Both the position numbers and the translations under genes were made by a program. From an uncultured delta proteobacterium (GTDB lineage Bacteria > Desulfobacterota > Binatia > UBA9968), in contig CAVTUQ010000019.1 of NCBI GenBank assembly GCA_963737905.1, forward strand, positions 136,837 to 200,836: a stretch of 64,000 nt of DNA, written 5' to 3'. Below the pieces are notes generated by a model, which saw only the letters and a list, made by a program, of their open reading frames with translations, searched no databases and was not told where the DNA came from. Of this stretch, positions 8,010-64,000 are shown in pieces. Numbering within the stretch: position 1 is the stretch's first letter; each line of letters opens with the position of its first letter.

Positions 8010-9020
8010 TTAGCTCGCTTTGCCGTAAAGCCGGTCGATAAAGCCGCTCTTCTTGATCTCCTCCATCAAGCTCGTGTCCATGAAACTTTCTGCTCGCGCG
8101 CCGCGGGCTTTGGGAGTCAAGAGCGCATCGATCGCCGTCTGAATACCCTTGGCTTCGGGAAGCGGATATGGATTCATGCTCTTTACGAGCCGCTCGTAAA
8201 CCGGCTCGACTTCCGGTTCGTCGATGCTTTGTCGTAGCACGGCTTTGGCAATTTCCGGCTTGGTCTTGAACACGTAGATCCCTTCCGTCAAGGCCTCAAG
8301 GAAGCGGCGGATATTCGGCCTTTGGGTTCTCAGCAATGAACCATCAACAACGACTCCGTAGTTCGCGTAGTCCAGCGGCAGTTCAGCAAGGTCGGCAAAA
8401 ACCCGACAGCATCCGCTGGCTAAGATTTTTTGCACCTGGGTAGAGCTGACGATGGCCGCGTCCATATGACCGCCCATCAAGGCGGCGATTCGAGTCGGTG
8501 TATTGCCGGATTGCAGTATGCGTACGTCTTTATCGGGATCGAGTTTCCAGTAACGCAGGATGACGCGGGTGATAATGTCTGATCCTGAACCGTAGCGGCT
8601 GATGGCGACCGTTTTCCCTTTGAGGTCGGCTGGAGTGTTGATGGCTTTACGTACGACGAAAAAGGGCTCCAAACGGTTGATCATGACCGATATGACTTTG
8701 ATGTCGGTGGCGCCGGAAACACCCAGGCTTAAGAGCGCTGTCACATCGAAGCCTGCCAAACCGATATCGCCGGCTGAAAGCGTCTGGGCCATTAACGTTC
8801 CGCTGGTCAGGTAGATCGGTCTCACATCGACGCCGTGTTTGCGCCAGAGATTAGCGCGCTCGGTTACCCTGATGAGATCAGCGCCAACTCCACTGCCGCT
8901 GAAACCCAAATTCAAAACCGGGATAGTCTGCGCGCTCGTCTTAACGGAGCAGGTCAGAACTAGCGCAATGGAAACCCAGAGTGTGAAGCGCTTTATCATA
9001 AAGCTCCTCCTTGCCGTCAT
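8010..9020 (-). CDS. periplasmic solute-binding protein, NMT1/THI5-like
   Basis: Signal peptide FTLWVSIALVLTCSVKTSAQ. Third paralog of this SBP type. The start could be the internal MIKRF. Confidence 0.7.
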   Translation of the reverse strand: MTARRSFMIKRFTLWVSIALVLTCSVKTSAQTIPVLNLGFSGSGVGADLIRVTERANLWRKHGVDVRPIYLTSGTLMAQTLSAGDIGLAGFDVTALLSLGVSGATDIKVISVMINRLEPFFVVRKAINTPADLKGKTVAISRYGSGSDIITRVILRYWKLDPDKDVRILQSGNTPTRIAALMGGHMDAAIVSSTQVQKILASGCCRVFADLAELPLDYANYGVVVDGSLLRTQRPNIRRFLEALTEGIYVFKTKPEIAKAVLRQSIDEPEVEPVYERLVKSMNPYPLPEAKGIQTAIDALLTPKARGARAESFMDTSLMEEIKKSGFIDRLYGKAS

Positions 9021-9181
9021 CTTACCGGACCTGCGACTAATTGATACAGTGACAAGGGTGAAGTTAACAAGTCGTCTCGTTGCCCCAGGAGTCCGCCTTG
9101 GCCTTGACGATCTATCCCCGACAGGATTAAAGTAAAAAGGCTTGGTGATGCAAGCAAATTTAATGGAAAAGAGGTAGCCCC

Positions 9182-9589
9182 ATGGCGCAGGAAGCGAAAA
9201 TCTTCAAATATCAGACTCCCGAATTCGAGGGCGTCAAGAAGTCGATGATTGTGTGCAACAGCGATCTCATGAAAGTCATGGTCCAGGTCGTGAAGGACGG
9301 GGGCGAAAACAACCTCCATACCCACACCGGCGACGATGCCTTCTGGTATGTGATGAACGGCGCCGTGAAATTCTACGGCGAGGGCGACAAGTTGATCGGC
9401 GAATTCAACAAAGGCGAGGGAATCTTGATTCCTCGGGGATTCAAATATTGGTTTGAAAGCTGTGCCGGCGAGCCGCTTGAAATTCTCCGCGTGACCGCGA
9501 AAGACCAGACCGTCGAAAACAAGCGGGTCAATCTCACAGCGCCCAAGCAGTGGATGATCGATCAAGGCACGCCTGGCGTCACGGCGTAG
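9182..9589 (+). CDS. cupin-domain protein
   Basis: 135 aa with NNLHTHTGDDAFWYVMNGAVKF...IPRGFKYWF, a two-motif cupin signature. Confidence 0.6.
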   Translation: MAQEAKIFKYQTPEFEGVKKSMIVCNSDLMKVMVQVVKDGGENNLHTHTGDDAFWYVMNGAVKFYGEGDKLIGEFNKGEGILIPRGFKYWFESCAGEPLEILRVTAKDQTVENKRVNLTAPKQWMIDQGTPGVTA

Positions 9590-9617
9590 TCTCACCTTCC
9601 CTCTAAGCGATTCATCG

Positions 9618-9664
9618 ATCGGACTTCATGACGACAGTCGCGAAGTCCGATTTCTTTTTGTTTG
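9618..9664 (+). terminator. rho-independent terminator-like hairpin between convergent genes
   Basis: Perfect 10-bp stem ATCGGACTTC (9618-9627) / GAAGTCCGAT (9642-9651), followed by TTCTTTTTGTTTG. Confidence 0.6.
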
Positions 9665-9781
9665 CGTGCTCCGGCCAAAGATTAACCCTGTTCCGAACAT
9701 TAGTTCGAGCATTGAAGTGACTCTTTCCTGGGTAACGAAGTGTTTGTCGGAGCAGGGTTAATTCGTCTTCGCGGGGCCCGT

Positions 9782-10816
9782 CTACAGGAACCAGTGCAAT
9801 ATCTTAAGCGCCCCCTGCTCCACTGCGGACCGGTGATAGCTGACGGCGCTCTTATCGGCGAGTACGGCGGCACGATGGGCGAGATACCATTCGTAGCTTT
9901 CGACGAACATCTCGTTGTTCGAATAGCGGGGAACCCATCCCAGCTTCGTGCGTGCCTTGGCAATGTCAAAGTAAAAGGATCGTCCGTACATCGAGGCGTG
10001 ATAGGCACCCAACGGTGAGATTCCCAGGCCGGAGGAGAGATTCATCGCAGCCACCATGGGCCACATCGGCAGAGACTTTACCTTGGATCCCGTACGCGCA
10101 TAGTTGCAGAGATGCTCCAGCGCCTCGCGCATGGTCCCGAACCGGTTGGTGCCGCAATTAAAAGCGTCGCTACCCTTCAAGATACTTGCCCGTATACACC
10201 CTTCAGCAAAATCATCCGCATGCACGAATTGATAGATGTTTTTCCCGTCATCGAGCACAGGAATATTCTTCCCCTGATAAATCCATTCGAAAAGAATCTG
10301 AAAAATGCCCATTCGGCCGTGCCCCAAGATGGTACAGGGCCGGACAATGGACACATCCAGACCTTGCCGCGCATATTCGTGGCACAAGTCCTCTCCCGCT
10401 AGTTTGGTTTTTCCATACTCTTCCGCGGGAGCTGGCACAGCGTCCTCCGTTACCGGATTCGATTTAGGAATTCCGTACACCGCGCTCGAAGAGGTGTAGA
10501 CCACCTTCTTTACCGCTCCGCGTGCGCAGGACTCTAGCAGGTTCTTTGTCCCGTCGCGGTTAACACTCCAGAGCAACGGTTTGTTTATGGCTATAGCCAC
10601 CTGCGCTGCGTTATGGAAGACGACATCGATTCCCTCACAGGCTGACAGAACCGTATCAGGGTCGCGAATGTCCGCTTGCACCATCTCGGTTCCGGGATAC
10701 TTATCCGCAGGCAGATTGATATCGAGGATGCGGACGAAGTAGCCGCGCTCCAAGAGCTTTCGAGTGAGCAGGTCACCGAAATAACCTGCGCCGCCAGTAA
10801 CTAGAGACTTGATCAT
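9782..10816 (-). CDS. NAD-dependent epimerase/dehydratase (extended SDR)
   Basis: LVTGGAGYFG Rossmann motif, YGKTK catalytic motif, 344 aa. Confidence 0.8.
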   Translation of the reverse strand: MIKSLVTGGAGYFGDLLTRKLLERGYFVRILDINLPADKYPGTEMVQADIRDPDTVLSACEGIDVVFHNAAQVAIAINKPLLWSVNRDGTKNLLESCARGAVKKVVYTSSSAVYGIPKSNPVTEDAVPAPAEEYGKTKLAGEDLCHEYARQGLDVSIVRPCTILGHGRMGIFQILFEWIYQGKNIPVLDDGKNIYQFVHADDFAEGCIRASILKGSDAFNCGTNRFGTMREALEHLCNYARTGSKVKSLPMWPMVAAMNLSSGLGISPLGAYHASMYGRSFYFDIAKARTKLGWVPRYSNNEMFVESYEWYLAHRAAVLADKSAVSYHRSAVEQGALKILHWFL

Positions 10817-55461: not shown

Positions 55462-56025
55462 ATGACGAGACGTGCCCTGTTGCAGAGTGTGTTTGCATCC
55501 GCGATTTGGACCTTATTCAAGGATCTCGCTTTTGCGGCCCAGCCGCCATCAATGAAGGACATCGAGAATTTGCAGAAAAACTGGAAGGCGCTATTGGCTG
55601 ACGGGACCAAGTTGCCGTCGCCTTCCGATCCGCTCAAGCTGTCGAAAGAAGAATGGCGCAAGCGTCTGAACCCAACGCAATTCAATATCCTGCGCGAGGA
55701 AGGTACCGAGCCCCCCGGCACGAGCCCTCTGAACAACGAAAAGCGGCCCGGCGTATTCGTTTGCGTCGGCTGCAACCTGGCCCTTTTTACCTCCGATATG
55801 AAATACGAGAGCGGCACCGGCTGGCCGAGCTTCTTCACCACGATTCCGGGCGCCTTCGCCAACAAAACGGATTACAAACTGATTCTGCCGCGGAGCGAAT
55901 ACCACTGCATCCGTTGCGGCGGCCACCACGGCCATGTCTTCGACGACGGCCCGCCGCCGACGGGGAAGCGCTGGTGCAACAACGGCGTGGCTTTAAAATT
56001 TATCCCCAAAAGCGGCAGCGCATAA
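55462..56025 (+). CDS. msrB: peptide-methionine (R)-S-oxide reductase MsrB with twin-arginine signal peptide
   Basis: MTRRALLQSVFASAIWTLFKDLAFA (Tat-like). SelR domain with CVGC / CIRC zinc sites, GHVFDDGP and catalytic RWCNNG. Confidence 0.85.
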   Translation: MTRRALLQSVFASAIWTLFKDLAFAAQPPSMKDIENLQKNWKALLADGTKLPSPSDPLKLSKEEWRKRLNPTQFNILREEGTEPPGTSPLNNEKRPGVFVCVGCNLALFTSDMKYESGTGWPSFFTTIPGAFANKTDYKLILPRSEYHCIRCGGHHGHVFDDGPPPTGKRWCNNGVALKFIPKSGSA

Positions 56026-56361: not shown

Positions 56362-57453
56362 TTATCCCGAGCGGCGCAGAATTTTGAACGGCGGCAGCAC
56401 CGAGCGTAGCTTCAGCAACCCGCCACAACTTGGGCAGGCAGTGCGTTTTGGAGGGTCGATCTCGGGGACCGGCAAATCGACAGCGAAACCGTAACTTAAT
56501 TCGATCAGGCCACGAATCCGATCGAGCGGGATCTTGCAGTTGGGATTCATAAAGCCGTAGTAGCGGATTTTCATGAAGCCAGTGGGCAGCACATGCTGCA
56601 AGAAGCGGCGGATGAACTCCATAACATCAAGAGCCAAGATTCTGGAGCGCTGGCTGTGAGGCTTGCGATAGCGAATCAGCACGGTGCGGTCCTGGACGCC
56701 AAGGATGCGCGAGTTGGAGATGGCGACTTTGAAGACGTAGGGAGCGAGGTATTTGAGGCAGGCCTCACTGGAGGAGACCGCTTGGCAGTTGACGTTCCAG
56801 GCGATTTGCCAGACATCGTTGGGAATTTGATCGAACAATTTTGCTTGTTTCATCAGATCGCGGAACTTGGCCCTAAAGATGATCGAGAGCGCTTTGACCG
56901 GCAGAAAGAAATCGATTCGGGAAGGATGCCAAGAGCCATCCAATGAACGCATAGCGCCACCCGAAACGATGTAGTGGATGTGGGGATGGTACTGAAGAGT
57001 TCGTCCCCAGGTGTGCAGCACACCGAAGAAGCCTGGGAGATCGGCACCGATGTGTTTGGGATCAGTGGCGAGCTTTTTGATCGCCGCAGAAGAGGACTTG
57101 AACAGAGCCGAGTAACCGAGGCGCTGGTGTTGGCGGATGAAGGAACGCAATTTTTCTGGAACGGTAAACGTGATCAGGAAGTGATGGCCTGGGAGTTGGC
57201 GCTGGATCTGGGTTTGGAGCCACTGTTGGGATTTGTTGTACTGGCAGGTGGGACAGTGGCGATTGCCACAGGAAACGAAGAACTGTTGCGGCTCAGCACA
57301 GCCCTCGCACTGATAGAAAGCGATCCCGCAAGCCTCGGTGCGACAAGCGATGATGGCATCGATGACTTTACGATGGCTGCTGGGCATGGTCGTAGCATAG
57401 CGTTGGAGATACTCGGGGCCGAAGGTGGAAAAGATTTCACGAATGGAGGTCAT
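56362..57453 (-). CDS. IS91-family Y2 (HUH rolling-circle) transposase
   Basis: N-terminal Zn-binding CEGC...CGNRHCPTCQ, HUH motif HPHIHYIV, and Y2 motif YLAPYVFKVAIS. Confidence 0.85.
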   Translation of the reverse strand: MTSIREIFSTFGPEYLQRYATTMPSSHRKVIDAIIACRTEACGIAFYQCEGCAEPQQFFVSCGNRHCPTCQYNKSQQWLQTQIQRQLPGHHFLITFTVPEKLRSFIRQHQRLGYSALFKSSSAAIKKLATDPKHIGADLPGFFGVLHTWGRTLQYHPHIHYIVSGGAMRSLDGSWHPSRIDFFLPVKALSIIFRAKFRDLMKQAKLFDQIPNDVWQIAWNVNCQAVSSSEACLKYLAPYVFKVAISNSRILGVQDRTVLIRYRKPHSQRSRILALDVMEFIRRFLQHVLPTGFMKIRYYGFMNPNCKIPLDRIRGLIELSYGFAVDLPVPEIDPPKRTACPSCGGLLKLRSVLPPFKILRRSG

Positions 57454-58324
57454 GATCGAGTCCCTCCATCACGTGATTGATCAACTGACAGGCATCTTCC
57501 TGACCCTTCTGGGTCAGGTGGAGATAGAGCATGGTGGTTTCGAGACGGGAGTGGCCCAGGTAGCGTTGGATGACGCGCAGGTTGACGCCGGCTTCGAGGA
57601 GATGGGTGGCGTAGGAGTGGCGCAGGGTGTGGACCGCAACGCCCTTTTTGTTCACGCCGGCGTCCCGCTTGGCTTGGCGAAAGGCGCTCTGGAGGGTGCT
57701 CTTGGCCATGGGTTGGGTAGCCTGATGGGCATCGGTTTTTTTGTGGCCGCGAGCGGGGAAAACAAGCCGAGGATGGCGATGAGTGAGCCAGTATTGGCGC
57801 AGCAGATGGAGTGTGGGCTGGGGCAGAGCGACGTAGCGGTCCTTGGCGCCCTTGCCGCGGTGGACATGGATCATCATGCGCTTACTGTCGATATCGGAGA
57901 CTTCGAGGTGGCGGGCTTCGTCAAGGCGCAGGCCGCAGGAGTAGACGGTGGAGAGAAAGACGTGGTGGGGAGAGTTTTTAACCTGGGCCAGAAGGCTTCG
58001 GACTTCTTCGACGCTTAAGACAGCGGGCAGGCGGTGTTCGTTCTGGGCGCGCAGAATCGACAGGATGTGCCAGTCGCGCGCTAGCACATGGACGTAGAAA
58101 AAACGAATACCGCAGTAGCAGATGCGCATCGTCTTGGGCGCCCAGCGGTTGACGTTTTTGCGATGCAGAAAGTATTCTTGGAGCTCGGGTTCGGAGACGA
58201 GATCGGGCGTTTTCTCGTAAAACTCAGAGAGCATCCGTACCGCGCGGGTATAGGCTTTCTGGGTGGGTTCTCCTTTCCCATTGAGTTGCAGGATGGCGAT
58301 CATCCGTGGATACCAATCGTTCAT
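57437..58324 (-). CDS. tyrosine recombinase (phage-integrase family), IS91-associated type
   Basis: R..HxxR..Y catalytic set (GLRLDEARHL, HTLRHSYATHLL, LGHSRLETTMLYLH). Its stop overlaps the transposase start by 17 nt. It lacks the long IntI-specific insertion. Confidence 0.8.
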   Translation of the reverse strand: MNDWYPRMIAILQLNGKGEPTQKAYTRAVRMLSEFYEKTPDLVSEPELQEYFLHRKNVNRWAPKTMRICYCGIRFFYVHVLARDWHILSILRAQNEHRLPAVLSVEEVRSLLAQVKNSPHHVFLSTVYSCGLRLDEARHLEVSDIDSKRMMIHVHRGKGAKDRYVALPQPTLHLLRQYWLTHRHPRLVFPARGHKKTDAHQATQPMAKSTLQSAFRQAKRDAGVNKKGVAVHTLRHSYATHLLEAGVNLRVIQRYLGHSRLETTMLYLHLTQKGQEDACQLINHVMEGLDHDLHS

Positions 58325-58425
58325 AAAGTTCTCCTTCCGAAATAAGATAGGAGAGCTTATCGAACAACGATGGTGGTGGGACAGGAACGAATGTCAGGGC
58401 GAATTAACTGCCGCGGAGCGGCTTA

Positions 58426-58485
58426 CTTGAACCATTGGGTTGAGACGGTCGCGGCAGACCGCGCCTCTCACCCACAACGTTAGAC
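58426..58485 (+). repeat. attC-like site 1: CTTGAAC ... GTTAGAC (60 bp)
   Basis: Arms CATTGGGTTGAGACGGTCGCGG / CCGCGCCTCTCACCCACAAC pair around the loop CAGA, with three single-base bulges on the left arm. Confidence 0.6.
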
Positions 58486-58616
58486 AGCCGAAAGTCAGGA
58501 GAGCGCCGATGATGGATCCGATCAGACGCAAAATCCTTCAAACAGGCGGCGCGGCAACGGTGATAATCGCAGCGCGGCGAGTGTTTGGTCAGCAAACTGC
58601 ACAAGGAGGAGCTGCA

Positions 58617-59372
58617 ATGTCGTTCTACAAAAAAGGCCCCGTTTGCATTCAATATGAGGAGGCCGGTTCTGGCTTCCCGTTGTTGCTCGTTCCTGGCGGG
58701 GGATTGAACTCGACGATCGCCGGCTTGAAACGCGGCGGGCCTTTCAATGCGATCGAAGAGTTCAAGGGAGAATACAGCTGCATCTTCTCGGACATGCGCA
58801 ACGCCAATGGCGGTCAGTCCTACGGCCCACTTGAGATCGATCGGCCGTGGGATGCCTATACCGATGACCATATCGGTGTGATGGATCATTTAGGAATAGA
58901 CAAGTTCATGGTCATGGGCTTCTGTATCGGCGGTCCGTTGATTTGGAACCTTCTGAAGCGGGCACCCGATCGCATCGTCGCAGCCGTGCTGGCACAGCCC
59001 AGCGGATTCCGCCCGGAGCTGCCCAACCACTCGTACGACAACAACATCAAGGGTTGGGGCCCCGAGCTGGTCAAGCGCCGGCCCGACATCACGATGGAGA
59101 TGGTCGACAAATTTCTAACCAAGATGTACCGCACCAACCCCGACTTCGTCTGGACTGTGACACGCGATTTCGTGCGCAATTGCCGGACGCCGGTGCTGAT
59201 CCTGCCGGATGATACCCCGCCGCATCCGTACGTCGTCGCCATGGAGGCCGCCATGCTTGCGCCGAAGGCAGAAGTGAGCATGTTCCCGTGGAAGGAGCCG
59301 AAGGAACGGATTCCCCTGGCGGTGCGCCAGATACGTTCCTTCCTCCGGGCGCACCGGCTCGCTTCTGTTTAG
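58617..59372 (+). CDS. alpha/beta-fold hydrolase
   Basis: Start moved to MSFYKKGPVCIQYEEAGSGFPLLLVPGGG behind AAGGAGGAG. Nucleophile-elbow-like MGFCIGG. The ORF-track start at 58440 lies inside the repeat. Confidence 0.7.
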   Translation: MSFYKKGPVCIQYEEAGSGFPLLLVPGGGLNSTIAGLKRGGPFNAIEEFKGEYSCIFSDMRNANGGQSYGPLEIDRPWDAYTDDHIGVMDHLGIDKFMVMGFCIGGPLIWNLLKRAPDRIVAAVLAQPSGFRPELPNHSYDNNIKGWGPELVKRRPDITMEMVDKFLTKMYRTNPDFVWTVTRDFVRNCRTPVLILPDDTPPHPYVVAMEAAMLAPKAEVSMFPWKEPKERIPLAVRQIRSFLRAHRLASV

Positions 59373-59435
59373 ACGGAGGCGTCAGTACCAGAAGGCCGTC
59401 GACGCCAGGTGACCGCATGAAACCTTTCTTACGCC

Positions 59436-59495
59436 GTCTAACCATTGGGTTGAGAATGACGCGGCAGAGCGCCCCTCTCATCCATGGCGTCAGAC
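59436..59495 (+). repeat. attC-like site 2: GTCTAAC ... GTCAGAC (60 bp)
   Basis: Same length as site 1, sharing AACCATTGGGTTGAGA, CGCGGCAGA and CCTCTCA in the same order. The arms pair with bulges. Confidence 0.6.
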
Positions 59496-59499
59496 GTCA

Positions 59500-59996
59500 G
59501 TCTCAGTCAACAGGTTACGGAGGTGGCTATGGAACCCAACTGCACACCGATGCTGATAAGTACCAGGCCGGAATGGGAGGCGCGTCACAAAAAAGCGAGG
59601 ACCTGTTGCAACTTGTGTATGGGATAACAGTGGAGGCTTGGAGTTAGCGGAAAGATTCTGGGACGCGGCTATTGCGGTTGATCCAGAAGCTAAACGAACT
59701 GGGGATAGCGTTATGGATCACCAAGTGCGCTTTCAGATTTGTGGACCGCCACTGGTTTTGCGAATGTTGAAACAAAGGCCCTGATTATTCCTATGGAGTT
59801 TACTTCCTTCGAGGATTTGTGGCGCATTGAGTCGAATGCCCAGGGACCGCCTAAACTTTATATCAGTACTCTCTCTGAGCATCGCCAACAGGCATTGAAG
59901 GAGCGACTACGCACGGATATTCTTGGTAATCGCCCTGATGGATCGATTATGCTTAGTGCCAAGGCTTGGGCAGTGCGCGGGGTGGTACCGGCATAG
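59500..59996 (+). pseudogene. 5'-truncated, multiply frameshifted class I SAM-methyltransferase remnant
   Basis: Three frames join to LHTDADKYQAGM | RRVTKKRGPVATCVWDNSGGLELAERFWDAAIAVDPEAKRTGD | YGSPSALSDLWTATGFANVE...FTSFEDLW...DGSIMLSAKAWAVRG, a recognisable MTase C-terminal half. Confidence 0.55.
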
Positions 59997-60032
59997 AATT
60001 TTTCCGCGGACTGGTTTTTCGCAAAACGGAGC

Positions 60033-60089
60033 GTCTAACTTGGCCTCAGACCGATCGCTTACAGCGCCGGCTGAGCGTGAACGTTGGCC
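60033..60089 (+). repeat. attC-like site 3: GTCTAAC ... GTTGGCC (57 bp)
   Basis: Canonical inverse core. Arms GCCTCAG / CTGAGC and CGCT / AGCG pair around TAC. Confidence 0.5.
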
Positions 60090-60111
60090 TTCAAATTACC
60101 GAAGTTTGCTT

Positions 60112-60828
60112 ATGAAAATATTTCTGTCGCATCGCAGCCGAGATAAGGCGTTGGTCCGTGAGTTTAGGGACCTACTGCCAAGGTTCTTAGACGCTTGGCT
60201 CGACGAGGAAAGGCTTTCGTGGGGCGATTCCTTCCCAGGAGAGCTGAAGTCGAGCATTCAGTCGGGGGTCGATTTCTTAATCATATTCCTGGACAGGGAG
60301 GCGCTTAGTTCGGCATGGGTGAAACAGGAACTCCAATGGGCAATCGAACGCGAAAAGGAATTGAAGAGGACGTTTATCCTGCCCATCCTGCTCGAAGAAG
60401 TTTCTCCTGAAAATCTGCCCACTGAGTTTTCCACGCGATTATACCTTCGACTGGACGATTTCAGCCGTGCGTCGGTTGAGGCATTGGCGACCAGAGCGAC
60501 ACTACAACTGTTTCGTTTGGTTGTCGAAAGTTTCTCAGCTGTCCAGCTCGAAATACCGCGTCGCGAATCGCTCAACGCAATCCGTGACGGGCTTAGTGCA
60601 GGGCAGGCTCGTCTGCTAGGGTATATAGTCCGACAATGCAGTGATGGCTCAGAGCTGACGCAACGCGAGATCGAGACTGCAATGGGACACGCCCATGGCT
60701 CAGCAGAACTCTTTTACCGACTGGAATCGCTGATCGCACAAGGTTTCCTATTGAAGCGGCGCATAGCGGCAGATGGACAGTTTTCATATCGACTAAGCAA
60801 GGACTTTGGGGAGTTACGAGAAGGCTAA
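60112..60828 (+). CDS. TIR-domain protein with C-terminal winged-helix (wHTH) domain
   Basis: Start moved to MKIFLSHRSRDKALV. TIR_2-like motifs FLSH.S.D, DFLIIFL, SSAWVKQELQWA (conserved Glu), FILPILL. C-terminal LTQREIETAM...LFYRLESLIAQGFLLKRR..GQFSYRLS. Confidence 0.7.
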   Translation: MKIFLSHRSRDKALVREFRDLLPRFLDAWLDEERLSWGDSFPGELKSSIQSGVDFLIIFLDREALSSAWVKQELQWAIEREKELKRTFILPILLEEVSPENLPTEFSTRLYLRLDDFSRASVEALATRATLQLFRLVVESFSAVQLEIPRRESLNAIRDGLSAGQARLLGYIVRQCSDGSELTQREIETAMGHAHGSAELFYRLESLIAQGFLLKRRIAADGQFSYRLSKDFGELREG

Positions 60829-60910
60829 CCAAGCGTTGGACCGAACGGTGAATAGCGGCGATCGTGATGGCAGCGATTTTTCGCGCCGCCGGTCAACTCG
60901 GCTGTTAAGC
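60823..60910 (+). repeat. attC-like site 4: GGCTAAC ... GTTAAGC (88 bp)
   Basis: Overlaps the TAA stop of the TIR gene. GTTG[G]ACCG pairs with CGGTCAAC (bulged G), and GCGGCG pairs with CGCCGC. Confidence 0.5.
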
Positions 60911-60970
60911 TGCCTGCACTATGCCACCTTGACACTTGTCAATTTCGTTCAGATACGCCAGATATGATCC

Positions 60971-61812
60971 ATGACAACCATCAACCAAAATCGCACGCGA
61001 ATGAACGACGCTCTTGATCCCTCATCTATCCTCCAAACCGCTTTCGGTTTTTGGCATTCCAAAGTCCTGCTCACGGCCGTCGAGTTCGGTGTGTTCACGA
61101 AACTCGCCGGTCGCCGTCTCACCGGCGCCACCCAGCGGCGCATCGGACGATTCGAGTTGGCGAACGGCGGTACGATCTTTCTCGACGAGGTTACCGAGTT
61201 GCCCATCGATACGCAGGTCAAGCTGTGCGCGTGCTGCAAGAAGGAGAGTTCGAACGAGTCGGAAGCAGCAGACGATCAAAGTCGATGTGCGCGCCATCGC
61301 CGCCACCAATCGAGCTCAATGAGGTTGTGAAGAACGGAACCTTTCGGTCGGATCTTTTTTACCGGCTCAACGTGTTTCCTCTGAGGGTGTCGGCGCTGCG
61401 CGAACGGAAAGATGATATTTCGCTCCTGGTCAATTTCTTTCTGAGCAAATTTGGCAAGAAATTGGGTAAAGAGGTGCGGGGTGTCTCTCAGAGATCGATG
61501 GATAGTTTGGTCAACTACGACTGGCCGGGAAACGTGCGTGAATTACAAAACATCATTGAGCGCGCGGTGGTGCTCGCCGCGGGTCCGATCGTCCAGATCG
61601 ACGACTCGATGATGCGCTCCGGTGAAGCGGCGCAGGAGTCGGCCCTCGATACGCTTGAGAATGCTGAACGCAATCACGTCCTGCGGGCGTTGTACGAAAC
61701 CCATTGGATTGTTCACGGCAAGAAGGGCGCGGCGGAGATCCTTGGGATCAACCCCAGTACCTTGCGATCGCGGATGGAGAAGCTTGGAATAAGGCGGCCA
61801 GCGCAATCGTAA
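60971..61812 (+). pseudogene. chimeric remnant: O-methyltransferase dimerisation-domain fragment fused to a 5'-truncated, frameshifted sigma-54 activator
   Basis: [33 protein letters not shown] (OMT N-terminus) runs at about 61130 into [20 protein letters not shown] (Walker B). At least 3 frame changes follow (61225-61320) before FRSDLFYRLNVFPL...WPGNVRELQN...HTH. Confidence 0.7.
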
Positions 61813-61814
61813 AA

Positions 61815-61925
61815 GTTCCAGTCGTTTCAATTGTTCCAGAAGTTCCAGCGGTTGAGGTCAACGGTCCGTTGGACGGTTCAACGACGACGACTTGAACGAA
61901 TGGAACAACTGGAGCTTTTGGAACC
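61815..61925. repeat. about 110-bp imperfect palindrome with three GTTCCAG copies on the left arm
   Basis: GTTCCAG at 61815, 61833 and 61842. Inverse TGGAAC/CTGGAG/GGAAC at 61901-61925. Centre CAACGGTCCGTTG at about 61866. Confidence 0.6.
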
Positions 61926-62523
61926 TCGGCCATCGCGGCGCCCATATGATGACCAACCGGTACCCGAGCAGCAGCGCCAATATCGCACCGTATTGAAACG
62001 GCCGGCGAATATCGGCTTTCACCAACCAGTAGAAATGAATGACGCCGGCGATTGCCGCGATATAAACCAAGCGGTGCAACCGCTGCCAGCGCTTGCCCAG
62101 CCTGCGAATCATAGCTGCCGTCGAGGTGATCGCCAGCGGGATCATAAGCACGAAGCCGGTAAATCCCGCGGTCACATAGGGGCGCTTGATGATGTCTTTG
62201 ACGATCGCTTGAAAATCAAAGAAATGATCGAGCACCAGGTAAGTCGAGAAGTGCAGGCCCGCGTAGAAGAAGGCGAACAGTCCTAGCATCCGCCGGAACT
62301 TGATTATCTCGTTCCATCCAAAGATTTTGCGTAGCGGTGTCACGCTGAGTGTTGCCAGCAAGAAGATCAAAGTCCAATCGCCGGTAAAGTGCGTGATAAA
62401 CTCGATCGGGTTTGCTGTCAGATCACCAGCCCATGCGTTGTACAGTAGCTGCCCCAACGGGATGAGACAGGCGATAAAGACAGCGAGTTTTAAGCGGGAC
62501 AACATAGTCGGCATATAGCTCAT
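61858..62523 (-). CDS. msrQ: protein-methionine-sulfoxide reductase heme-binding subunit MsrQ (YedZ)
   Basis: 221 aa, 6 TM helices, ferric-reductase-like His pairs, immediately downstream of msrP. Confidence 0.8.
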   Translation of the reverse strand: MSYMPTMLSRLKLAVFIACLIPLGQLLYNAWAGDLTANPIEFITHFTGDWTLIFLLATLSVTPLRKIFGWNEIIKFRRMLGLFAFFYAGLHFSTYLVLDHFFDFQAIVKDIIKRPYVTAGFTGFVLMIPLAITSTAAMIRRLGKRWQRLHRLVYIAAIAGVIHFYWLVKADIRRPFQYGAILALLLGYRLVIIWAPRWPRFQKLQLFHSFKSSSLNRPTDR

Positions 62524-62623: not shown

Positions 62624-63586
62624 CTAATAATACTTCTTCAAATCCATCCCACGGTAAAGGTCCGCGACCTGTTCACCGTAGCCGTTGAACATCAAGGTCT
62701 TTCGCCTGAGGAATTCACCGATGCGCCGTTCCGTCGCCTGGCTCCAGCGCGGGTGGTCGACTTCGGGGTTTACGTTGGAATAAAAGCCGTATTCCTGCGG
62801 CTGCATCAGGTTCCAGGCGGTGGGTGGTTGTTTTTCGACGAAGCGGATCTTGACGATGGATTTGATGCTCTTGAAGCCGTATTTCCACGGCACGACAAGC
62901 CGGATTGGCGCTCCGTTTTGCGAGGGTAGTGTTTCCCCATACAGGCCCACAGACAGTATCGTCAACGGGTGCATCGCTTCGTCCATCCGCAGTCCTTCGA
63001 CATAGGGCCATTCCAGCACGGGGAATTTTTGCCCGGGCATGCGCTTTGGATCTTGTAGTGTGACAAACTGGATGTACTTTGCTTTGCCGGTGGGCTCCGC
63101 GAGCTTGACGAGCGAATTCAAAGGAAAGCCGACCCAGGGAATCACCATCGACCAGGCCTCGACGCAACGCAAGCGATAGATTCTTTCTTCCAGCGGGGCG
63201 ATCTTTATGAGCGTGTCAATGTCGTAGGTTTTTGGTTTATTAATTTCACCCTCGACGGCGATCGTCCAGGGACGGGTCGTGAGATATTTGGCGTTTTCTG
63301 CCGGATCGCCTTTGTCGGTACCGAGTTCATAGAAGTTGTTGTAGGTTGTGATGTCTTTAAGTGAATTCAATTTTTCGCTGGTACTGAACGAGCTTTTGCG
63401 AAGGTCGCTCAATTTTTCTCCCGCGATGACTTGACGAGGCGAGAGAGACGCACCGAACCCGCTGAGGACTGCGCCGGCGGATAGCGCCGTGGCGGACGCA
63501 GCGAGAATAAACTGACGCCGGTTCAAGTAAAGATCTTTGGGGGTGATCTCAGATGACTTTATGTCGTTCGATTTCGTGATCAGCAT
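62624..63586 (-). CDS. msrP: protein-methionine-sulfoxide reductase molybdopterin catalytic subunit MsrP (YedY)
   Basis: Tat signal [42 protein letters not shown] and [18 protein letters not shown] are YedY hallmarks. Confidence 0.9.
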
Positions 63587-63636: not shown

Positions 63637-64000
63637 CTAGAGGTCCTTCTCTGCCAGGAGCTGCTTGATAAGCGCTTCAGTTTTCTCATAGGCGCCCTCG
63701 CCGACATGGCCGTACCGGATAATACCTTTTTTGTCGATCAAAATCGTTGTCGGCCACGCCCAGATCCCGTAACGCTTCCAAATATCGAAGCCGTTGTCCT
63801 GTACGACCGGGTAGCGGATCCCCAGTTGCTCTGTTGCCGTTTTCACCTTGTTCAGGGGTTTCTCCCAGAAAAATTCAGGCGAGTGGACTCCTACAATTGT
63901 AAAACCTTGCTTTTCGTACTTGTCGTACCAGCCCCGCAACTGCGGGACAACGTTTTTGCAGTTAATTCAGCCGTAAGTCCAGAATTCGACCAGAACAACA
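63637..64000 (-). CDS. thioredoxin-fold redoxin (TlpA/ResA-like), probable selenoprotein with UxxC active site; N-terminus outside window
   Basis: The frame reads VVLVEFWTYG-TGA-INCKNVVPQLRGWYDKYEKQGFTIVGVHSPEF...WPTTILIDKKGIIRY. The in-frame TGA (63967-63969) occupies the first Cys of the FW..WCxxC motif. Confidence 0.65.
63931..63948 (-). promoter_or_regulatory. SECIS-like hairpin downstream of the in-frame UGA
   Basis: The RNA reads GUCCCGC-AGUU-GCGGGGC (7-bp stem including one G:U, 4-nt loop containing GU). The stem starts 18 nt after the UGA. Confidence 0.5.

What the first reader, a model, noticed from the sequence alone, without database searches (positions are those of the whole stretch)
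63931..64000. In-frame TGA at the CxxC position of a redoxin plus a downstream hairpin: probable UxxC selenoprotein missed by the ORF track
- **Reading frame.** The minus-strand frame is continuous across 63967-63969 (TGA): VVLVEFWTYG[TGA]INCKNVVPQLRGWYDKY, followed by 100 aa of clean TlpA/ResA-like thioredoxin fold.
- **Active site.** The TGA replaces the first Cys of the FW..WCxxC motif. This is the classic position of Sec in thiol-disulfide oxidoreductase selenoproteins.
- **Hairpin.** Starting 18 nt downstream is GUCCCGC-AGUU-GCGGGGC, with GU in the 4-nt loop. That falls within the spacing range reported for bacterial SECIS elements.
- **ORF track.** The track begins this gene at an internal TTG only because of the TGA.
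Basis: partly seen in the sequence, partly recalled or inferred. Interest (0 to 1): 0.65.

Follow-up and report, generated by a model that had tools for sequence, protein, structure and literature searches.

The report
Selenocysteine redoxin heading an msrPQ operon
The in-frame TGA is almost certainly a genuine selenocysteine codon in an exported thioredoxin-like enzyme encoded just upstream of the envelope methionine-repair genes msrPQ; the call is correct, but this kind of selenoprotein is already known and gene callers routinely cut it in two.

Summary
TGA at 63967-63969 (minus strand) lies in one continuous 190-codon frame that starts about 210 nt beyond the window end. It replaces the first Cys of a W-x-x-x-C-x-x-C thioredoxin-fold active site (FWTYG-U-INC). 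A 7-bp hairpin with an AGUU loop follows 18 nt later.

Evidence for Sec:
- 21 orthologs checked at the codon level have TGA in the same column, and many homologs have Cys there.
- Every Sec form keeps a hairpin with GUU in the loop, even though its register and sequence change.
- Codons on both sides of the TGA are under purifying selection.
- The genome has selA, selB and a Sec-containing selD, plus two fdhA and two ArsM-like genes with TGA and a matching hairpin.
- TGA is otherwise the commonest stop codon.

Caveats: no tRNA-Sec is present in this 87%-complete MAG, although relatives have a nearly invariant one.

The protein is an exported DipZ-like TlpA-family redoxin (1.0 Å rmsd to M. tuberculosis DipZ-C). 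It is the first gene of a redoxin-msrP-msrQ unit conserved in two families. UxxC thioredoxin-fold selenoproteins are already catalogued, and this scan has already reported Sec-redoxin/msrPQ operons in Rokubacteria on other DNA. This is a new member of a known kind.

The parts
63637..64000 (-). Sec-redoxin coding sequence, the part inside the window. The gene runs on to its ATG at about window coordinate 64209 (G000:C19:201045). Stop codon TAG is at 63637-63639.
   Evidence: Pfam AhpC-TSA/Redoxin/Thioredoxin_8. AlphaFold model with pLDDT >95 over residues 50-190.
63967..63969 (-). In-frame TGA, the predicted selenocysteine codon (U82 of P0001, which carries one extra leading residue; U81 counting from the ATG; first position of UxxC).
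   Evidence: Same column is TGA in 21 orthologs and Cys in many others.
63958..63960 (-). TGC, the resolving Cys of the U-I-N-C motif.
   Evidence: Cys at this position is nearly invariant (at least 90%) in the 44-sequence alignment (C85).
63931..63948 (-). bSECIS-type hairpin GUCCCGC-AGUU-GCGGGGC (loop at 63938-63941).
   Evidence: Passes the published bSECIS constraints. Conserved in all Sec forms. Modest covariation.
62624..63586 (-). msrP, the periplasmic molybdoenzyme methionine-sulfoxide reductase. It starts 50 nt after the redoxin stop and has its own GAGGAGG ribosome-binding site.
   Evidence: NF003767 at 494.8 bits against a cut-off of 207. Adjacency conserved in relatives.
61858..62523 (-). 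msrQ, the haem-binding membrane subunit.
   Evidence: NF003831 at 199.8 bits against a cut-off of 130. Adjacency conserved in relatives.
55462..56025 (+). MsrB with a Tat-like leader (MTRRALL...AFA/AQ). It is a possible thiol-dependent client of the redoxin but not a conserved neighbour.
   Evidence: PF01641 at 141 bits. Absent from the neighbourhoods of G170, G074 and G091.

Best explanation
The gene encodes a single 190-residue exported thioredoxin-fold thiol:disulfide oxidoreductase of the DipZ-like branch of the TlpA family. Its nucleophilic active-site cysteine is replaced by selenocysteine (FWTYG-U-I-N-C).

Decoding (inferred from sequence and comparison). During translation, SelB carrying Sec-tRNA(Sec) binds the hairpin 18-36 nt downstream of the UGA (loop AGUU) and delivers Sec instead of termination.

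Catalysis (inferred from the family). An N-terminal signal or anchor segment takes the protein to the periplasmic side. There the selenolate attacks an oxidised substrate, forms a selenenylsulfide with Cys85, and is probably re-reduced through the genome's single CcdA-type membrane electron transporter.

Physiological role (inferred from conserved gene order). The gene is the first of a redoxin-msrP-msrQ unit, so its likely role is envelope oxidative-damage repair alongside MsrPQ. It may act as a reductant of oxidised Cys or of thiol-dependent Msr enzymes such as the exported MsrB encoded in the same window.

Shown: the frame, the Sec/Cys pairing, hairpin conservation, the Sec machinery genes, the fold and the synteny. 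Inferred: actual Se insertion, topology, electron donor and substrate. The confidence given is for Sec decoding of this codon; the specific functional role with MsrPQ is much less certain (about 0.3-0.4).
For: - Column conservation: TGA is at the identical column in 15 orthologs from three families of the same order, with Cys in two others. There are 5 more TGA forms in named soil MAGs and 1 on a JGI contig whose gene call reads W there.
- Both sides translated: the 36 codons upstream of the TGA have pN 0.15-0.36 against pS 0.5-1.0. The 100 downstream codons give similar values, pN 0.10-0.32 against pS 0.66-0.86.
- Hairpin against the bSECIS rules from PMC13188914: stem 7 bp, loop AGUU with G at position 2, 25 nt from UGA to loop, -12.3 kcal/mol.
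- Sec versus Cys forms: a strict no-bulge version of the model passes 16 of 20 Sec forms and 3 of 26 Cys forms. The four failing Sec forms fold into the same hairpin with one bulge.
- Codon and pairing constraint: TTG is invariant in the loop of all Sec forms, although TTG is only 21% of Leu codons here. Compensatory changes occur, G-C to C-G within the alignment and C-G to U-A in L127.
- Decay in Cys forms: Cys forms that encode the same PQLR peptide have lost the hairpin through synonymous changes in 2 of 4 cases.
- Sec machinery: selA (606.9 bits), selB (409.8 bits) and selD (381.4 bits) are clustered on C29. selD's own TGA is at its active site.
- Other selenoprotein genes in G000: two fdhA and two ArsM-like genes, each with one TGA and a model-passing hairpin 17-19 nt downstream.
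- Standard code: TGA is the commonest stop, 756 of 1,914 long ORFs.
- Fold: mean pLDDT 86.9, and Foldseek gives 1.0 Å rmsd and 42% identity to DipZ-C (2hyx).
- Synteny: msrP-msrQ lie directly downstream in families f1 and f2 and in Binatia-labelled MAGs.
- Link to Msr: Cys homologs are fused to MsrB.
Against: - No tRNA-Sec in this assembly. ARAGORN and RF01852 find only Leu and Ser tRNAs. BLAST with the nearly invariant selC of relatives finds nothing. The site syntenic to the G002 selC lacks it.
- The assembly is a MAG with 87.5% completeness and 6.7% contamination, so the sel genes and this contig could in principle come from different cells. Their G+C is identical, however (0.548 and 0.549), and relatives carry both.
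- The TGA could not be confirmed in reads.
- Covariation in a single register is modest, at 79% of cells paired and 2 compensatory pairs.
- Two Cys forms keep the hairpin (L045, L129), so the hairpin alone is not diagnostic.
- No experimental evidence for Se incorporation, topology or substrate.
- In family f3 the gene is not next to msrPQ.
Confidence: 0.9

Rival explanations
1. The organism has really lost tRNA-Sec. The TGA then terminates translation here, and the gene, like the other TGA-bearing genes, is an inactive relic in this strain although it is functional in relatives.
For: No selC is found by three methods, including at the site syntenic to G002's selC. Same-genus G001 also shows no hit above cut-off.
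Against: - selA, selB and selD are intact, and selD itself needs Sec.
- At least six TGA genes keep intact frames and hairpins.
- The assembly is 87% complete and lists only 44 tRNAs.
- Same-genus G002 has selC at 76.7 bits.
Confidence: 0.05
2. The gene is a pseudogene or carries a sequencing error. The TGA is a nonsense mutation or a miscalled base, and only the 100-aa fragment, if anything, is made from the internal TTG.
For: Table-11 ORF calling yields only the 100-aa TTG-initiated fragment. Reads were not checked.
Against: - The same TGA column occurs in 21 independent genomes or contigs.
- Purifying selection acts upstream of the TGA.
- The fragment would lack the signal peptide and the whole active site.
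- There is no Shine-Dalgarno sequence before the TTG, which lies inside the hairpin.
Confidence: 0.02
3. The TGA is read through by another route, either genome-wide code 4 or 25, or near-cognate Trp or Cys insertion, and not as Sec.
For: Public gene calls translate close orthologs with W or G at this column (P0002, P0004, P0003). For P0002 the codon was confirmed as TGA.
Against: - TGA is the commonest stop codon in G000, and neighbouring genes are full length under table 11.
- The position is the redox-active Cys, where W or G would kill the enzyme.
- A SelB-type hairpin and the sel genes are present.
Confidence: 0.02

Closest known systems
[quoted passage not shown] Sources: Table 1 of PMC13188914, PMC1794560 and PMC2398784.
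   Same: Thioredoxin or Prx-like fold. Sec at the first position of UxxC. bSECIS hairpin just downstream. Abundant Cys homologs. Found in delta-proteobacteria-type lineages. Hits the same Pfam models.
   Different: This subfamily has the motif FWTYG-U-[IY]-N-C, is DipZ-like, and in two families heads an msrPQ operon. I did not find that link in the papers searched.
C-terminal thioredoxin-like domain of Mycobacterium tuberculosis DipZ (PDB 2hyx, 5cyy).
   Same: 42% identity and 1.0 Å rmsd over 143 columns. Same FW.Y.CINC active-site context and extracytoplasmic location.
   Different: DipZ has Cys rather than Sec. It is fused to a CcdA-like membrane domain and a further C-terminal domain. Here the domain stands alone behind a signal or anchor segment, and CcdA is encoded elsewhere.
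Extracytoplasmic Trx-Msr systems: the N-terminal domain of Neisseria PilB (2h30, 2fy6) and the Streptococcus pneumoniae Etrx1/2-MsrAB2-CcdA system (2yp6, 4hqz; PMC3914529, PMC6210582).
   Same: Exported TlpA-like thioredoxin genetically tied to methionine-sulfoxide repair. Cys homologs of this protein are fused to MsrB. An MsrB with an export leader is in the window.
   Different: Sequence similarity is distant (E about 1e-7 to 1e-10). The partner here is the molybdoenzyme MsrPQ, which in E. coli takes electrons from MsrQ rather than from a thioredoxin (established knowledge). A Sec active site is not reported in those systems.
Sec-redoxin/msrPQ operons reported earlier in this scan in Rokubacteria/Methylomirabilota (notes e1-1240085 and e1-694288).
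   Same: Exported UxxC TlpA-like redoxin encoded with msrPQ.
   Different: Different phylum. Those loci include a sensor kinase and response regulator, and this one does not. I did not re-test those notes.

Membership tests
Bacterial SelB/SECIS-decoded selenoprotein | In-frame UGA aligned with Cys in homologs (Sec/Cys pair), with coding conservation on both sides. | tested here: met
Bacterial SelB/SECIS-decoded selenoprotein | bSECIS hairpin: loop of 3-9 nt with G in its first two positions, stem of at least 4 bp, 16-37 nt from UGA to loop, MFE of -7.5 kcal/mol or lower. | tested here: met
   Stem 7 bp, loop AGUU, 25 nt, -12.3 kcal/mol. Conserved in all Sec forms.
Bacterial SelB/SECIS-decoded selenoprotein | selA, selB and selD present in the genome. 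| tested here: met
   All three score above curated cut-offs and are clustered on C29. selD is itself Sec-containing.
Bacterial SelB/SECIS-decoded selenoprotein | tRNA-Sec (selC) present in the genome. | tested here: inconclusive
   Not found in this 87%-complete MAG. Present at 64-79 bits in 15 of 20 relatives, including same-genus G002.
Bacterial SelB/SECIS-decoded selenoprotein | Selenium actually incorporated at the UGA. | not testable with these tools
   Needs 75Se labelling or mass spectrometry.
TlpA/ResA-like (DipZ-like) extracytoplasmic thiol:disulfide oxidoreductase | Thioredoxin fold with W-x-x-x-C/U-x-x-C at the N-terminus of helix α1. | tested here: met
   The model places U82 before helix 85-102. 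Foldseek gives 1.0 Å rmsd to DipZ-C, with ResA, DsbE and Etrx2 also matched. phmmer gives E = 6.6e-38 to 2hyx.
TlpA/ResA-like (DipZ-like) extracytoplasmic thiol:disulfide oxidoreductase | Conserved cis-Pro loop opposite the active site. | tested here: met
   W153-P154-T155 are invariant in the 44-sequence alignment.
TlpA/ResA-like (DipZ-like) extracytoplasmic thiol:disulfide oxidoreductase | Export signal or membrane anchor. | tested here: inconclusive
   A basic N-terminus followed by a hydrophobic helix (residues 19-34) and GRA/Q is seen in the sequence and the model, and equivalent segments occur in all orthologs. No dedicated signal-peptide predictor was available.
Catalogued 'Prx-like thiol:disulfide oxidoreductase' / 'Redoxin family protein' selenoproteins | PF00578 or PF08534 domain with a UxxC motif. 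| tested here: met
   PF00578 at 66.3 bits and PF08534 at 52.5 bits. Motif U-I-N-C.
Catalogued 'Prx-like thiol:disulfide oxidoreductase' / 'Redoxin family protein' selenoproteins | Orthology to the prototype records (WP_010940744.1, HEU0032618.1). | not testable with these tools
   The prototype sequences cannot be fetched by accession here. Genus g25 of the relatives is not Geobacter by a pilin test.
NCBIfam selenoprotein redoxin models (NF041054 WAxxUGC_long, NF040769 SelL-related) | Score above the curated cut-off. | tested here: not met
   25.8 bits against a cut-off of 300, and 21.8 against 120. No NCBIfam model covers this subfamily.
Peroxiredoxin (AhpC/TSA) | Peroxidatic PxxxTxxC/U motif. 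| tested here: not met
   The active site reads FWTYG-U-INC, a Trx-type W...CxxC context. The Pfam AhpC-TSA hit reflects the shared fold.

The most novel reading that the evidence does not exclude
The Sec-redoxin is a dedicated third component of the MsrPQ system in this order, and independently in Rokubacteria. It could be a selenol-based periplasmic reductant or protector that repairs oxidised Cys or Met, or keeps MsrP or an exported MsrB active under hypochlorite-type stress, with Sec chosen because it resists irreversible over-oxidation. If so, the two-component MsrPQ model taken from E. coli would need extending.
Probability: 0.25. Interest if true: 0.55.

Novelty: new member of a known kind. 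Interest (0 to 1): 0.3.

Why it matters
- Annotation: it corrects a systematic error. The gene is called as a 100-aa fragment here, and close orthologs in public metagenome calls carry W or G at this column; for the one whose DNA I fetched (P0002), the codon is a TGA. The family's Sec forms are therefore largely hidden in databases.
- Biology: it adds a conserved genetic link between a selenoprotein redoxin and the envelope methionine-sulfoxide repair system MsrPQ in soil bacteria.
- Evolution: it gives a clean example of Sec/Cys turnover. In the class sample, Sec forms were found only in one order. Some Cys revertants still carry a fossil SECIS, and others have lost it through synonymous changes.

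None of this changes the known picture of bacterial selenoproteins.

Tried and rejected
- tRNA-Sec search in G000. I used ARAGORN on the whole genome, RF01852, Rfam at E-value threshold on 20 kb around selABD, BLAST with relatives' selC, and inspection of the site syntenic to G002's selC. None found it.
- Single-register covariation. Register 22-28/33-39 gives modest support. Register 23-29/33-39 alone gives none, because clades use different registers.
- Identifying the relatives with complete genomes as Geobacter, in order to link to the Geobacter 'Prx-like' prototype. A pilin test was negative, and the taxon of the order remains unnamed. The nearest named MAGs are labelled Candidatus Binatia or Deltaproteobacteria.
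- Literature check for a described MsrPQ-linked Sec redoxin. Nothing was found in the papers held. PMC12013261 is not held.
- Exported MsrB as a conserved neighbour. Rejected, since it is absent from the G170, G074 and G091 neighbourhoods.
- Neighbourhood of the family f3 copy. Uninformative.
- Promoter and terminator scan. Uninformative.

Full report
**Observation.** On the minus strand the window ends inside a gene that reads ...VVLVEFWTYG-TGA-INCKNVVPQLRGWYDKY..., with the TGA at 63967-63969. Table-11 ORF listing gives only a 100-aa fragment (63637-63939) that starts at an internal TTG. The window is G000:C19:136837-200836. Reading past its end, the frame stays open for 82 more codons to an ATG at about window coordinate 64209. 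That ATG is preceded by AAGGGG and encodes MRRQTSSTIGASKIFRCQAVSSFALAITLIAWLLWPGRAQ..., a signal-peptide-like or anchor-like N-terminus. The hairpin GUCCCGC-AGUU-GCGGGGC lies at 63931-63948, starting 18 nt after the UGA.

**Is the TGA a conserved, translated codon?** A six-frame search of 40 related genomes found orthologs at 48-65% identity. Fifteen of them, from three families of the same order, carry exactly one in-frame TGA, and two carry none.
- In all fifteen the TGA is at the same column (FWTYG-U-[IY]NC). The two others read FWTFG-C-YNC.
- Among named genomes, five more TGA forms occur in soil MAGs labelled Candidatus Binatia, Deltaproteobacteria or delta proteobacterium. Dozens of Cys forms occur in other phyla.
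- The three closest proteins in the large protein database read W or G at this column. For one of them the DNA was fetched and the codon is TGA, so the gene caller had used code 4.
- The 36 codons upstream of the TGA have pN 0.15-0.36 against pS 0.5-1.0. The 100 downstream codons give similar values, pN 0.10-0.32 against pS 0.66-0.86. Both halves are therefore under purifying selection in one frame.
- TGA is otherwise the commonest stop codon in this genome, 756 of 1,914 long ORFs, so no alternative genetic code is involved.

**The hairpin.** The review PMC13188914 gives the bSECIS model as a loop of 3-9 nt with G in its first two positions, a stem of at least 4 bp, 16-37 nt between the UGA and the loop, and MFE of -7.5 kcal/mol or lower. 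The window's hairpin has 7 bp, loop AGUU, 25 nt spacing and -12.3 kcal/mol.
- A strict no-bulge implementation passes 16 of 20 Sec forms and 3 of 26 Cys forms. The four failing Sec forms, all from family f2, fold into the same hairpin with one bulge.
- The hairpin is kept in different registers and with different sequences in different clades: CCCGC-AGUU-GCGGG, CCCGC-AGUUG-GCGGG, UCCCAUC-GUU-GGUGGGA and AUUCUGC-AGUU-GCGGAAU. For that reason a single-register covariation count is only modest. It gives 79% of cells paired against 34-61% for slid controls, and two pairs with changes on both sides.
- The Leu codon in the loop is TTG in every Sec form, although TTG is only 21% of Leu codons in G000.
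- Four Cys forms encode the same P-Q-L-R peptide. Two keep the hairpin (L045, L129), which look like fossil SECIS elements. Two have lost it through synonymous changes, CCT...TTA in L128 at 88% protein identity and CCT...CTG in L130. This is the pattern expected if the RNA structure is needed only together with the UGA.

**Sec machinery.**
- selA (606.9 bits), selB (409.8 bits) and selD (381.4 bits) lie together on contig C29. selD has its own TGA at the active site, KAAG-U-AAKLGP.
- C19 and C29 have the same G+C, 0.548 and 0.549.
- G000 also has two formate dehydrogenase alpha genes with a TGA in the conserved context ...ENQAR[IV]-U-HSSSVP..., and two ArsM-like genes with one TGA each.
- All six TGA genes have a model-passing hairpin 17-33 nt downstream, with loops GUU, GGUCU, GUU, GGA, GGA and AGUU.
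- The weak point is tRNA-Sec. ARAGORN and RF01852 find only Leu and Ser tRNAs. Nothing is found near selABD. BLAST with the nearly invariant selC of relatives finds nothing, and the region syntenic to the G002 selC flank has no tRNA.
- The MAG is 87.5% complete and shows only 44 tRNAs. Fifteen of 20 relatives, including one of the same genus, have selC at 64-79 bits. I therefore read this as an assembly gap, but it is not proven.

**What the protein is.**
- Pfam gives AhpC-TSA, Redoxin and Thioredoxin_8. No NCBIfam model reaches its cut-off, and the Sec-specific redoxin models score far below theirs.
- The closest solved structure is the C-terminal thioredoxin-like domain of M. tuberculosis DipZ (E = 6.6e-38), followed by the Trx-like domains of SOQ1 and NHLRC2, and then ResA.
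- An AlphaFold model built on 44 sequences has mean pLDDT 86.9, and above 95 over residues 50-190. It superposes on DipZ-C at 1.0 Å over 143 columns. U82 sits just before helix 85-102, and there is an N-terminal helix at 19-34.
- W153-P154-T155, the cis-Pro loop, is invariant.
- The active-site context is Trx-type rather than the peroxiredoxin PxxxTxxC.

**Context and likely function.**
- The gene is followed after 50 nt by msrP (NF003767, 494.8 bits) and then msrQ (NF003831, 199.8 bits). Beyond msrQ lie a truncated sigma-54 activator fragment, a TIR-domain gene, an integrase and an IS91 transposase.
- The order redoxin(U)-msrP-msrQ recurs in family f1 (G006, G170, G074, G091), usually as mutY-mtgA-redoxin-msrP-msrQ. 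It also recurs in family f2 (G025, G029, G031, G033), in the Binatia-labelled MAGs and on metagenome contigs. It does not recur in family f3.
- Several Cys homologs are fused to MsrB, and some Cys-form loci have MsrB adjacent.
- The window also encodes an MsrB with a Tat-like leader at 55462-56025. This confirms note e1-4375792, but that MsrB is not a conserved neighbour.
- G000 has one CcdA/DsbD-type gene, on C37 next to a TlpA paralog.
- From this I infer an exported selenol/thiol oxidoreductase working in envelope oxidative-damage repair alongside MsrPQ and re-reduced via CcdA. The substrate is unknown. Known analogues are the N-terminal domain of Neisseria PilB and pneumococcal Etrx-MsrAB2-CcdA (PMC6210582, PMC3914529).

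**Distribution.** In a sample of 150 genomes of the class, ortholog-level matches with a TGA occur only in the window's own order (10 genomes including G000). Seventeen genomes of other families have Cys forms only, often in longer open frames.

**Novelty.**
- I could not test orthology to their prototype records.
- I found no paper describing the msrPQ link.
- This scan has already reported Sec-redoxin/msrPQ operons in Rokubacteria on other DNA (e1-1240085, e1-694288) and several other split TlpA-like Sec genes.

**Verdict.** The finding is real and correctly interpreted. It is a new member of a known kind and of modest interest.

Noticed in passing
L045 (DATBMR010000049.1, Cys codon at 1702-1704) and L129 (ENA ERZ27254792 k141_1542090): These are Cys-form orthologs (TGC) that still carry the intact CCCGC-AGUU-GCGGG hairpin. 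They look like recent Sec-to-Cys reversions with a fossil SECIS. L128 and L130 encode the same PQLR peptide but have lost the hairpin through synonymous changes.
   Followed up: partly
P0002, P0004 (JGI metagenome gene calls) and P0003: Public gene calls of the closest orthologs read W or G at the Sec column. For P0002 (L127) the DNA was fetched and the codon is TGA, read as W under code 4. P0003 and P0004 were not checked at the DNA level.
   Followed up: partly
G000:C29:71024-75669 and C29:33000-36100: The selD(Sec)-selB-selA cluster lies about 35 kb from a Sec-containing formate dehydrogenase alpha gene on the same contig. A second fdhA(Sec) is at C36:54276-55361.
   Followed up: partly
G000:C24:3230-3811 and G000:C4:73737-74315: Two near-identical ArsM-like methyltransferase genes each have one in-frame TGA (context ...DLWAA-U-I[SG]GALPEV) and the same hairpin GCUCUGCC-GGA-GGUGGAGC 17 nt downstream.
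   Followed up: partly
G000:C10:105739-107300: The PAS sensor-kinase gene that flanks selC in same-genus genome G002 is present here at 80% DNA identity, but no tRNA-Sec lies beside it. selC is missing from the whole assembly.
   Followed up: yes
window 55462-56025 (+): An MsrB (SelR domain) with a Tat-like leader, MTRRALLQSVFASAIWTLFKDLAFA/AQ. MsrB is usually cytoplasmic, and an exported copy would need a periplasmic thiol reductant.
   Followed up: partly
window 56362-61812: A mobile or accessory block lies between msrQ and the exported MsrB. It holds an IS91-family transposase (56362-57453), a tyrosine integrase (57437-58324), a TIR-domain protein (59923-60828) and a truncated sigma-54 activator fragment with only the lid and HTH domains (61051-61812).
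   Followed up: partly
L132 (G074:C21) 9015-9980: In this relative the Sec-redoxin frame runs on for 470 aa directly into the C-terminal half of msrP (residues 173-320 only). This is either a deletion or fusion, or an assembly artefact.
   Followed up: no
Relatives G012:C257:3014-3400, G031:C406:1659-2036, G009:C80:8933-9319, G007:C81:12291-12698, G018:C4:98076-98537, G022:C190:11984-12400, G027:C2:1218227-1218562: Other, more distant TlpA-like paralogs in related genomes also contain one in-frame TGA. This order may carry several distinct Sec-redoxin subfamilies.
   Followed up: no
G000:C37:146886-147993: The genome's only CcdA/DsbD-type membrane electron transporter gene sits directly after a Cys-type TlpA paralog. 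It is the likely electron source for exported redoxins.
   Followed up: no
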